Below are positions 49,994-52,900 of a stretch of 64,000 nucleotides of DNA, in pieces (the first letter of the stretch is position 1; each line of letters starts with the position of its first letter). The stretch lies in NCBI RefSeq assembly GCF_056746865.1, contig NZ_CM163382.1; one strand, given 5' to 3'. Position numbers: made by a program.

Positions 49994-52900
49994 ATTTGTG
50001 CGCTGATGCCTGATGCGACGCTGACGCGTCTTATCATGCCTACAAATCTGTACCCGAACCGTAGGCCGAATAATGCGTTTACGCCGCATCCGACCTGAAA
50101 ATACTTAAATCAATCTTCGCCGGGGGCCATGCGCTCCCGCTGTTGTGGAGGTTACCCATGTGCGAATTGCTCGGGATGAGCGCCAACGTCCCTACCGATA
50201 TCTGCTTTAGTTTCACCGGGCTTGTACAGCGTGGTGGTGGAACCGGGCCACATAAAGATGGCTGGGGCATCACCTTTTACGAAGGTAAAGGCTGTCGCAC
50301 ATTTAAAGATCCACAACCCAGCTTTAATTCCCCCATCGCCAAACTTGTCCAGGACTACCCGATAAAATCCTGTTCGGTTGTGGCTCATATTCGGCAGGCC
50401 AATCGGGGCGAGGTGGCGCTGGAAAATACTCACCCGTTTACCCGCGAGTTATGGGGACGCAACTGGACTTATGCCCATAACGGGCAACTGACGGGCTACA
50501 AATCACTGGAAACCGGCAACTTCCGCCCGGTCGGTGAAACCGATAGCGAAAAAGCCTTTTGCTGGCTCCTGCATAAATTAACGCAGCGTTACCCGCGCAC
50601 ACCGGGCAACATGGCGGCAGTGTTTAAATATATCGCCTCACTGGCGGATGAACTGCGGCAGAAGGGCGTTTTCAACATGCTGCTTTCAGACGGGCGCTAT
50701 GTAATGGCGTATTGCTCGACTAATTTACACTGGATCACCCGCCGCGCGCCGTTTGGCGTGGCAACGTTGCTGGATCAGGATGTGGAAATCGACTTCAGCT
50801 CGCAGACCACACCTAATGATGTGGTCACGGTGATTGCGACACAGCCGCTGACGGGCAATGAAACCTGGCAAAAGATTATGCCAGGCGAATGGCGCTTATT
50901 TTGCCTCGGGGAGCGTGTAGTTTGATGCCAGCTGTGGTTGCACAACTTCGTGGCTTAACGGCTTGCTGACCACGTAACGGCCATTGACCACAGAAACGGT
51001 CGGTGGCTTACGGGTTTGCTCAAAGTAGTCGTAGCCCGGTTTCAGTTGCTCCCAGAAGTCCTTAAAGTTGGAATACTTATGGCGCTTCATATTAGCGTCG
51101 GTCATACGGAACGGGTAAATACTCACTTGCACGCTCGGCTGACCAAACACCAGCGCACCAGTAACGAACTGGAAGATCTCATCAATACCCTGATTGGTCA
51201 TCGCGTAGCAGCCGATGGAAACACAATCGCCGTGGATCATCAGGTATTTCCCTTCATAACCATGCGCACGGTCATAGGCATTGGGGAATCCAATATTAAT
51301 CGCTTTGTAGTAACGGCTGTCTGGTTTTAACTGATTACGCTGGACGCTATAAAACCCTTCCGGGCTTTTGAAATCGCCCTGACGCTGTTTTGGTCCTAAG
51401 CCGCCGGAATATTTACAGATTTTATAGCTGTCGAGCAGTTGATATTGCTCGCCCATTTTGACGTAGAGATCGAGCGTACGTTCTTCCTTGAAGATCTGGA
51501 TGTAGACAGGGGATCCCATCAACTGCTGCTTATACTCTTTGCTCACTGGCGTGGTCGAGCTACTGCTGCCCAGCAAACCGGCAAACGAAACGCACGGGAT
51601 CAACAACATCGCAAGAATTAATGCGATTTTACGCATACTGCTTATTCCTTGATAAAACGGTTACACACGCCAGGACGGCAAAATGGATCCCAAATCGGAA
51701 TAGTCTGGATTTGGAAGGCTCACATTATCACCAAAAGAGTTTTACGCAAGCCTGTCGGCGCAGGGTTTACAAATTTAGCACAGGGGCAGTTTTCATTAGT
51801 CCGAAAAGCGCATGTATCATTTATTTCCTAAGATTATGAAACCTCAATAGTAATATGCAAATAAGCAATTAATAATCCCGTTTACTCCTCCGGTCTTTTA
51901 AAATTCTCCCCTTCATTCAGCCGGTTTATGTCCTTCATGTCTTCGTTCTTTCACGGCAGATTTCTGCATCCAGGCGTGTTTTCGTTATGCGTTTTGCTCC
52001 CTTTACTCGCCAGCGCCACCACATCACATATCTCTTTCAGCTACGCCGCCCGCCAGCGGATGCAAAACCGTGCGCGTTTATTAAAACAGTACCAAACCCA
52101 TCTGAAAAAACAGGCCAGCTATATTGTGGAAGGCAATGCCGAAAGCAGAAAGGCGCTGCGCCAGCACAACCGCGAACAGATAAAACAGCATCCAGAATGG
52201 TTTCCTGCGCCGCTCAAGGCGAGTGACAGACGCTGGCAGGCGCTGGCGGAGAACAACCATTTCTTAAGCAGCGACCATCTGCACAACATCACCGAAGTGG
52301 CGATTCACCGCCTGGAGCAGCAGCTTGGTAAGCCTTACGTCTGGGGCGGCACGCGGCCCGATCAAGGCTTCGACTGTAGCGGGTTGGTTTTTTATGCCTA
52401 CAACAAGATCCTCGAGGCGAAGCTCCCGCGCACGGCCAATGAGATGTATCACTACCATCGGGCAACGATTGTGGCGAATAACGACCTGCGCCGGGGAGAT
52501 TTGCTGTTTTTCCATATTCACAGCCGTGAGATTGCCGATCATATGGGCGTGTATCTGGGAGACGGTCAGTTTATCGAGTCGCCGCGCACCGGGGAAACCA
52601 TTCGGGTAAGTCGGTTAGCTGAACCTTTCTGGCAGGATCATTTTTTAGGCGCGCGCAGGATTTTGACGGAAGAGACGATTTTGTAGGACGGATAAGGCGT
52701 TCACGCCGCATCCGGCAATAGTGCACCGATGCCTGATGCGACGCTGCCGCGTCTTATCATGCCTACGAGTCTGCGAATTTTTTGCGAGCTGCTTTCCCGA
52801 TATAACACAACTTCATTGTCGACTTTTCCTTTTCTTCTTATCGTTGAGAAAAAGGAGTCGCCATGTCTGAATATCGTCGTTATTACATCAAGGGGGGAAC

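What the first reader, a model, noticed from the sequence alone, without database searches (positions are those of the whole stretch)
51637..51927. No dinJ-yafQ toxin-antitoxin module between yafK and yafL
From memory of the K-12 map (yafK, yafQ, dinJ, yafL), a type II toxin-antitoxin pair is expected here. The 291-bp yafK-yafL spacer in this window is non-coding and AT-rich with no ORF of the appropriate size, so this strain appears to lack the module at this site.
Basis: partly seen in the sequence, partly recalled or inferred. Interest (0 to 1): 0.3.

Follow-up and report, generated by a model that had tools for sequence, protein, structure and literature searches.

The report
Toxin-antitoxin-free dpaA–yafL spacer, common allele
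This E. coli strain really does lack the dinJ-yafQ toxin-antitoxin genes that K-12 carries between yafK (dpaA) and yafL, but this is an ordinary, already documented variant shared by about 38% of complete E. coli genomes and probably the older state of the site.

Summary
In the window, dpaA/yafK (50896-51636, minus strand) and yafL (plus strand, starting at 51937 or 51928) are separated by 291-300 bp of AT-rich non-coding DNA. K-12 has yafQ and dinJ at this position.

The difference is a replacement, not a simple gap. Window 51777-52008 (232 bp) stands where K-12 has 838 bp holding yafQ, dinJ, its LexA-box promoter region and the first 24 codons of yafL. I found no significant similarity between the two segments, so there is no degenerate copy.

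Among 5,426 complete E. coli genomes:
- 2,084 carry the window-type segment, including CFT073, ST131 and ST69 strain 118UI (100% identical).
- 3,340 carry dinJ-yafQ.
- About 2 carry both.

The window-type spacer also occurs in Escherichia albertii, and its yafL-proximal part resembles the sequence next to yafL in Pseudocitrobacter. This suggests the TA-free layout is the older one. The K-12 cassette is also old or mobile, since it is present in a non-coli Escherichia.

Published work already reports dinJ-yafQ as present in the E/B1/A lineage and phylogroup F only. Verdict: real, ordinary, already known, low interest.

The parts
50896..51636 (-). dpaA (yafK), a 246-aa YkuD-fold peptidoglycan-Lpp amidase; left flank of the site
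   Evidence: ORF. Pfam YkuD, E 2.9e-08. 97.8% identical to K-12 dpaA. Annotated dpaA in 118UI.
51637..51776 (.). 140-bp part of the spacer shared by both alleles, corresponding to all but about 15 bp of the K-12 yafQ-dpaA spacer
   Evidence: 100% identical to K-12 L001 3307-3446. Homology ends at 51776/51777, which in K-12 is 15 nt past the yafQ stop codon.
51777..52008 (.). Allele-specific 232-bp segment (yafL upstream region plus signal-peptide codons) that occupies the place of the 838-bp K-12 dinJ-yafQ cassette
   Evidence: No blastn match to K-12 L001 3447-4284. Found in 2,084 of 5,426 complete E. coli genomes. 81-83% identical copies in E. albertii, SCPM-O-B-8794 and O145 RM9872.
51821..51878 (.). 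Highly conserved non-coding block inside the allele-specific segment; a likely promoter/operator region for the divergent genes (inferred)
   Evidence: 54 of 58 columns are invariant across the window, CFT073, O145 RM9872, SCPM-O-B-8794 and E. albertii, while the neighbouring spacer columns vary. Its yafL-proximal half, AATAAGCAATTAATAATCCCG, resembles the sequence upstream of yafL in Pseudocitrobacter (comparison by eye).
51833..51861 (-). Sigma-70-like promoter match TTTGCA-17-CATAAT, pointing toward dpaA
   Evidence: 9 of 12 matches, but 2 sites found against 1.0 +/- 1.0 expected, so it is not significant alone. Both hexamers are invariant in the five-sequence alignment. Function is inferred, not shown.
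51814..51815 (.). Site of an 11-bp deletion specific to the window's allele
   Evidence: CFT073, O145 RM9872, SCPM-O-B-8794 and E. albertii all carry 11 extra bases here.
51937..52686 (+). yafL, a 249-aa NlpC/P60 (C40) peptidase (alternative start at 51928); right flank. Codons up to 52008 belong to the allele-specific segment.
   Evidence: Pfam NLPC_P60, E 3.1e-33. PGAP start in 118UI maps to 51937. Homology to K-12 resumes at 52009, at the ASA|TT end of the signal peptide. The mature part is 93.8% identical to K-12.
52863..53360 (+). rayT (yafM), REP-associated tyrosine transposase; context showing collinearity with K-12
   Evidence: ORF; annotated rayT in 118UI and K-12; 93.0% identical to K-12.

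Best explanation
The strain carries the TA-free allele of the dpaA(yafK)-yafL intergenic region. The allele is a 291-300 bp spacer with two parts:
- a 140-bp part shared with K-12;
- a 232-bp allele-specific part containing a conserved regulatory block and the yafL signal-peptide codons.

K-12-type strains have this 232-bp part replaced by an 838-bp cassette. The cassette brings yafQ, dinJ, a LexA-box promoter region, a different yafL upstream region and a different yafL signal peptide.

The TA-free layout is most likely the older state of the site in the genus Escherichia, and the window's lineage (ST69-like, phylogroup D) simply retains it. As a consequence the strain has no YafQ ribosome-dependent mRNA interferase, no DinJ and no SOS box at this locus.

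What is shown: the absence, the breakpoints, the population frequencies and the presence of the allele in outgroups. What is inferred: the direction of the event (gain in K-12-type lineages rather than loss here), and the idea that dpaA and yafL are transcribed here from promoters inside the spacer.
For: K-12 layout.

Breakpoints: window 50801-51776 matches K-12 at 98.2% and 52009-52900 at 93.2%, with nothing matching in between.

No DinJ or YafQ similarity anywhere in the window. No LexA box (CTG-N10-CAG) in the spacer, whereas K-12 has CTGTATATTTATTCAG upstream of dinJ.

Population counts: 2,084 genomes hold the window-type segment, 3,340 hold dinJ-yafQ, and 5,422 hold either, so about 2 hold both.

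Reality of the sequence: 39 complete genomes cover at least 80% of window 40001-64000, and the top-listed ones match the full 24 kb at 100%.

Outgroups: E. albertii NBRC 107761 has dpaA, the shared 140 bp, the window-type segment (about 81%) and yafL in uninterrupted order. The yafL-proximal upstream sequence and the ATGTCTTCG start resemble those in Pseudocitrobacter, where yafL sits next to a MATE transporter gene (comparison by eye).

A simple deletion of dinJ-yafQ could not create 232 bp of conserved sequence that K-12 lacks.

[quoted passage not shown] 118UI is ST69, phylogroup D (PMC8900328). Chromosomal type II TA modules of E. coli are described as horizontally transferred into intergenic regions (PMC5120126 citing Ramisetty and Santhosh 2016).
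Against: The K-12 cassette is not confined to E. coli. Escherichia sp. MOD1-EC7003, a non-coli Escherichia, has the full 838 bp at 96.9% identity with the same boundaries, about as diverged as its flanks. The insertion allele is therefore old or moves between species by homologous recombination. I cannot exclude that an ancestor of this lineage once had it and regained the TA-free allele by recombination.

Only one clear outgroup species, E. albertii, was recovered. E. fergusonii and Salmonella gave no match to the search pattern.

The rest of the source genome is outside the window and was not searched directly.
Confidence: 0.85

Rival explanations
1. Secondary loss: an ancestor of this lineage carried dinJ-yafQ and lost it, either by deletion or by allelic replacement with a TA-free segment imported by homologous recombination.
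For: The cassette also exists in a non-coli Escherichia at 96.9% identity, so it may predate E. coli diversification. yafL and rayT next to the site are unusually diverse among E. coli, at 91.6-94.8% and 93.0% against 96.4-98.5% for dpaA, which suggests frequent recombination here. O145 RM9872 carries a divergent TA-free allele, so alleles at this site can evidently be very different within E. coli.
Against: A plain deletion is excluded, because the window holds 232 bp that K-12 lacks and that are conserved in E. albertii. No cassette remnant is detectable. Loss through re-import of the old allele cannot be told apart from retention with these data.
Confidence: 0.12
2. A degenerate, unrecognised remnant of dinJ-yafQ is hidden in the spacer.
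For: The best local alignment joins window 51792-51840 to the 3' end of dinJ with score 15, slightly above the shuffle mean of 11.9 +/- 1.4. Two small ORFs of 60-72 aa exist.
Against: 12 of 300 shuffles reach that score, and the match is inverted relative to the K-12 orientation and is not collinear. tblastn gives nothing better than E = 29 in the spacer. The ORFs have no Pfam hit and are broken in other alleles. The same segment is conserved in E. albertii as a unit.
Confidence: 0.02
3. The module is present elsewhere in the same genome, on the chromosome or a plasmid outside this window.
For: 12 of the 3,350 dinJ-yafQ matches in complete genomes are on plasmids. About 2 genomes carry both the TA-free site and a K-12-like dinJ-yafQ.
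Against: That is about 2 of 2,084 genomes with the TA-free allele, roughly 0.1%. Nothing is found in the 64-kb window. Copies below about 85% nucleotide identity would have been missed by megablast.
Confidence: 0.03

Closest known systems
dinJ-yafQ locus of E. coli K-12 MG1655 (b0226-b0225), between dpaA/yafK and yafL
   Same: Same chromosomal site and same flanking genes: gmhA, yafJ, dpaA on the left and yafL, rayT on the right. The 140 bp next to dpaA are 100% identical.
   Different: K-12 has 838 bp (yafQ, dinJ, LexA box, its own yafL upstream region and 24 signal-peptide codons) where the window has an unrelated 232 bp. No TA genes are present in the window.
TA-free dpaA-yafL allele of CFT073, ST131 and other strains
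   Same: Same architecture and homologous spacer. 96.1% identity over the allele-specific segment for CFT073. dpaA and yafL are annotated as directly adjacent.
   Different: The window's allele has an 11-bp deletion at 51814/51815 and a few substitutions. CFT073 lacks rayT and has only a truncated Flag-2 flhA downstream, whereas the window has rayT, ISEc31 and an intact-looking Flag-2 cluster.
Horizontally acquired chromosomal type II TA modules inserted in core intergenic regions (Ramisetty and Santhosh 2016; Fiedoruk et al. 2015, as cited in PMC5120126)
   Same: The presence/absence pattern follows lineage. The cassette consists of promoter/operator plus the two ORFs without a terminator, and the downstream core gene yafK is probably co-transcribed in K-12.
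   Different: The window is the unoccupied form of such a site. Here the occupied form also replaces native sequence, including the start of yafL, rather than being a clean insertion.

Membership tests
DinJ-YafQ type II toxin-antitoxin module | Two adjacent small genes, antitoxin of about 86 aa upstream of a toxin of about 92 aa, on the dpaA strand between dpaA and yafL | tested here: not met
   No minus-strand ORF of 25 aa or more lies in 51637-51927. The only ORFs there are + strand, 60 and 72 aa, not conserved and without Pfam hits.
DinJ-YafQ type II toxin-antitoxin module | Sequence similarity to DinJ (RelB/DinJ family) and YafQ (RelE-superfamily mRNA interferase) | tested here: not met
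   tblastn of K-12 DinJ and YafQ against the whole window gives best E 0.38 and 0.86, scattered. blastn of the 838-bp cassette gives best E 1.4.
DinJ-YafQ type II toxin-antitoxin module | LexA box (CTG-N10-CAG) in the promoter region upstream of dinJ | tested here: not met
   None in the window spacer. K-12 has CTGTATATTTATTCAG at L001 4020.
TA-free dpaA-yafL allele (CFT073 / ST131 / ST69 type) | dpaA and yafL directly adjacent and divergent, with a spacer of about 300 bp | tested here: met
   The same annotation is seen in 118UI and CFT073.
TA-free dpaA-yafL allele (CFT073 / ST131 / ST69 type) | Presence of the 232/243-bp allele-specific segment that is absent from K-12 | tested here: met
   2,084 genomes match window 51777-52008, 2,083 of them over at least 80% of its length. 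Identity bands: 189 at 99% or more, 638 at 95-99%, 1,228 at 90-95%, 29 at 80-90%.
TA-free dpaA-yafL allele (CFT073 / ST131 / ST69 type) | Mutually exclusive with dinJ-yafQ in the same genome | tested here: met
   2,084 + 3,340 - 5,422 = about 2 genomes with both. This was not tested directly on the source genome.

The most novel reading that the evidence does not exclude
The two forms of this site may be discrete, old haplotypes maintained across species boundaries in Escherichia. Both forms occur in non-coli Escherichia.

The dinJ-yafQ cassette may also have rewired its neighbours. It removes a conserved block (51821-51878) holding the only dpaA-directed promoter-like site in the spacer. In K-12-type strains dpaA would then depend on read-through from the LexA/DinJ-YafQ-controlled dinJ promoter, and yafL would get a new upstream region and signal peptide. 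In TA-free strains such as this one, the two cell-wall genes would keep their native regulation.
Probability: 0.3. Interest if true: 0.3.

Novelty: already known. Interest (0 to 1): 0.08.

Why it matters
It matters little. The result confirms that K-12 is not a universal template for E. coli toxin-antitoxin content. About 38% of complete genomes, including major extraintestinal pathogenic lineages (ST131, CFT073-like, ST69), have no dinJ-yafQ, so phenotypes attributed to this module in K-12 cannot be generalised to them.

One modestly useful by-product is the exact anatomy of the polymorphism: 232 bp against 838 bp, with breakpoints 15 nt past the yafQ stop codon and at the end of the yafL signal peptide. 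This suggests that acquiring the module also changed the regulation of dpaA and the export signal of yafL, two cell-envelope genes. That idea is testable but untested.

Tried and rejected
1. Remnant search. blastn with word size 7, Smith-Waterman with shuffles and tblastn all found no credible dinJ-yafQ trace.

2. Homology between the K-12 dinJ-yafL intergenic region and the window's yafL upstream region. Global alignment is no better than shuffles, z = -0.24. For the signal-peptide codons there is only a weak signal (z = 2.4; 14 of 1000 shuffles; shared ATGTCCT start). I left this as inconclusive, so the true right edge of the non-homologous region could be the yafL start codon rather than 52008.

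3. Rfam scan of 51400-52200. It returned only a chance miRNA hit, E 0.28 and far below the gathering score, so no known RNA family is present.

4. Small ORFs in the spacer as candidate genes. Rejected.

5. Promoter scan. Two promoter-like sites against 1.0 +/- 1.0 expected, not significant by itself. One of them overlaps the dpaA start codon and cannot serve dpaA.

6. Outgroup scan of species-representative genomes with a degenerate yafL pattern. It returned only 6 loci and none from E. fergusonii or Salmonella, so the outgroup evidence rests mainly on E. albertii.

7. Direct genome-wide search of the source strain. This was not possible with these tools, so I used inclusion-exclusion over 5,426 genomes instead.

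Full report
**What is in the window.** On the minus strand, 50896-51636 encodes a 246-aa protein with a YkuD domain. It is 97.8% identical at the DNA level to K-12 dpaA (formerly yafK). On the plus strand an NlpC/P60 protein, YafL, ends at 52686.

That ATG is ATA in three of five related alleles. The ATG at 51937 is invariant and is the start used by PGAP in strain 118UI, so 300 bp is the better figure.

The spacer has 40.7% G+C against 51.6% for the window. Two mechanical plus-strand ORFs of 72 and 60 aa overlap it. They have no Pfam match and are interrupted in CFT073 or O145 RM9872, so the spacer is non-coding.

**Comparison with K-12.** The RefSeq annotation of MG1655 gives gmhA, yafJ, dpaA (<), yafQ (<), dinJ (<), yafL (>), rayT (>).

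blastn shows window 50801-51776 aligned to K-12 at 98.2% and window 52009-52900 aligned at 93.2%, with nothing aligned in between. Window 51777-52008 (232 bp) therefore stands in the place of K-12 L001 3447-4284 (838 bp).

- The left breakpoint is 15 nt beyond the yafQ stop codon.
- The right breakpoint lies inside yafL, at the ASA|TT end of the signal peptide.
- The K-12 segment therefore carries yafQ, dinJ, the LexA box CTGTATATTTATTCAG, a different yafL upstream region and a different signal peptide: MSLPSIPSFVLSGLLLICLPFSSFASA against M(SFM)SSFFHGRFLHPGVFSLCVLLPLLASA.

The difference is a replacement, not a clean insertion or deletion.

**Is there a hidden copy?** No.

- tblastn with DinJ and YafQ, and blastn with the cassette, find only noise across the 64 kb (best E 0.38, 0.86 and 1.4).
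- The best Smith-Waterman alignment between the two segments scores 15. Shuffles give 11.9 +/- 1.4, and 12 of 300 reach 15. The alignment is inverted relative to the K-12 orientation.
- The K-12 dinJ-yafL intergenic region is no more similar to the window's yafL upstream region than shuffled sequence, z = -0.24.
- The signal-peptide codons show a weak, inconclusive resemblance (z = 2.4, 14 of 1000 shuffles).
- No Rfam family matches.

**How common is it?** I searched 5,426 complete E. coli genomes.

| Query | Genomes with a match |
|---|---|
| Window-type 232-bp segment | 2,084 |
| K-12 dinJ-yafQ | 3,340 |
| Concatenation of the two | 5,422 |

By inclusion-exclusion, only about 2 genomes hold both. 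The two forms behave as alternative alleles of one site, and a TA-free site almost never coexists with a K-12-like dinJ-yafQ elsewhere.

Carriers of the window-type allele include CFT073, O25b:H4-ST131 and strain 118UI, which is 100% identical. 118UI is ST69, phylogroup D (PMC8900328). 39 complete genomes cover at least 80% of window 40001-64000, and the best-listed ones match the whole 24 kb at 100%. The sequence is therefore not an assembly artefact.

**Which state is older?** A degenerate yafL pattern scanned over one genome per prokaryotic species returned six loci.

- E. albertii NBRC 107761 has dpaA, the shared 140 bp, the window-type segment (about 81% identical) and yafL in uninterrupted order. 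So does strain SCPM-O-B-8794.
- In two Pseudocitrobacter genomes yafL (about 90% identical) lies next to a MATE transporter gene without dpaA. Its immediate upstream sequence and its ATGTCTTCG start look like the window-type sequence by eye, not the K-12 type.
- A deletion of dinJ-yafQ cannot generate conserved sequence that K-12 lacks.

These points favour the TA-free arrangement as the older one and the K-12 cassette as an acquisition. This matches published analysis, which treats yafQ-dinJ as gained in the E/B1/A lineage and in phylogroup F (PMC6896753). It also matches the general view that chromosomal type II TA modules of E. coli are horizontally transferred into intergenic regions (PMC5120126).

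There is one caveat. Escherichia sp. MOD1-EC7003, a non-coli Escherichia, has the complete cassette with intact 86-aa and 92-aa ORFs at 96.9% identity and with the same boundaries. The insertion allele is therefore old or crosses species by recombination. Retention of the TA-free allele cannot be strictly separated from its re-acquisition.

**What the spacer probably does.** Within the allele-specific segment, 51821-51878 is nearly invariant (54 of 58 columns) from E. coli to E. albertii, while the flanking spacer columns vary.

It contains a minus-strand sigma-70-like match, TTTGCA-17-CATAAT (51861..51833), directed toward dpaA. Both hexamers are invariant. The only other promoter-like site overlaps the dpaA start codon.

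For K-12, RegulonDB as quoted in PMC5120126 lists no promoter in the yafQ-yafK spacer and considers yafK probably co-transcribed with dinJ-yafQ.

I infer, but have not shown, that in TA-free strains dpaA and yafL are driven by divergent promoters in this conserved block. I also infer that the cassette replaced that block in K-12-type strains.

**Verdict.** The observation and the interpretation are correct, but the feature is an ordinary and already published presence/absence polymorphism. Its only added value is the exact anatomy of the two alleles and a modest, untested regulatory hypothesis.

Noticed in passing
window 52009-53360 (yafL, rayT); loci L001, L003, L004, L006, L009: yafL and rayT are unusually diverse among E. 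coli: 91.6-94.8% and 93.0% identity to the window, against 96.4-98.5% for neighbouring dpaA. Pseudocitrobacter carries a yafL about 90% identical to the E. coli gene in a different context, next to a MATE transporter gene. This suggests the gene or region is exchanged horizontally.
   Followed up: partly
L003 2919-3546 (E. coli O145 RM9872): This strain has a divergent TA-free dpaA-yafL spacer (about 83% identical to the window's segment). Immediately downstream of yafL, where the window has rayT, it carries a hicA-hicB toxin-antitoxin pair. The neighbourhood looks like a hotspot for TA modules (dinJ-yafQ, hicAB).
   Followed up: partly
window 51814/51815: There is an 11-bp deletion in the window's spacer relative to CFT073, O145 RM9872, SCPM-O-B-8794 and E. 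albertii. It lies just upstream of the conserved block.
   Followed up: yes
window about 53519-64000: An IS3-family element (ISEc31 in the 118UI annotation) lies between rayT and a seemingly intact Flag-2 (lateral flagellar) gene cluster (flhA, flhB, fliR, fliQ, fliP...). K-12 has only the lfhA/lafU pseudogene scar there, and CFT073 has a truncated flhA.
   Followed up: no
window about 1-46000 (via L011 and L002): Going by the annotation of matching genomes, the window starts in an rRNA operon (23S, 5S, tRNA-Asp). It then runs through dkgB-yafC-yafD-mltD-gloB-rnhA-dnaQ and a second tRNA-Asp, followed by a type VI secretion island with a truncated vgrG. After that come ISAs1 fragments interrupted by a group II intron (ltrA) and ISEc1, before yafV-ivy-fadE-gmhA-yafJ.
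   Followed up: no
L008 (SFGJ01000062.1, 'Clostridiales bacterium' MAG contig): A 3.4-kb contig binned as Clostridiales carries E. coli K-12-type sequence: the dinJ-proximal cassette end at 93% and yafL at 94-96%. This is most likely contamination or misbinning of the metagenome-assembled genome.
   Followed up: no
window 50006-50098, 52701-52808, 53335-53549: REP/BIME-type palindromic repeats, recognisable by the recurring 'MPDATL.RLIMPT' pseudo-translations, flank gmhA-yafJ and rayT. This is as expected for a REP-associated transposase locus.
   Followed up: no
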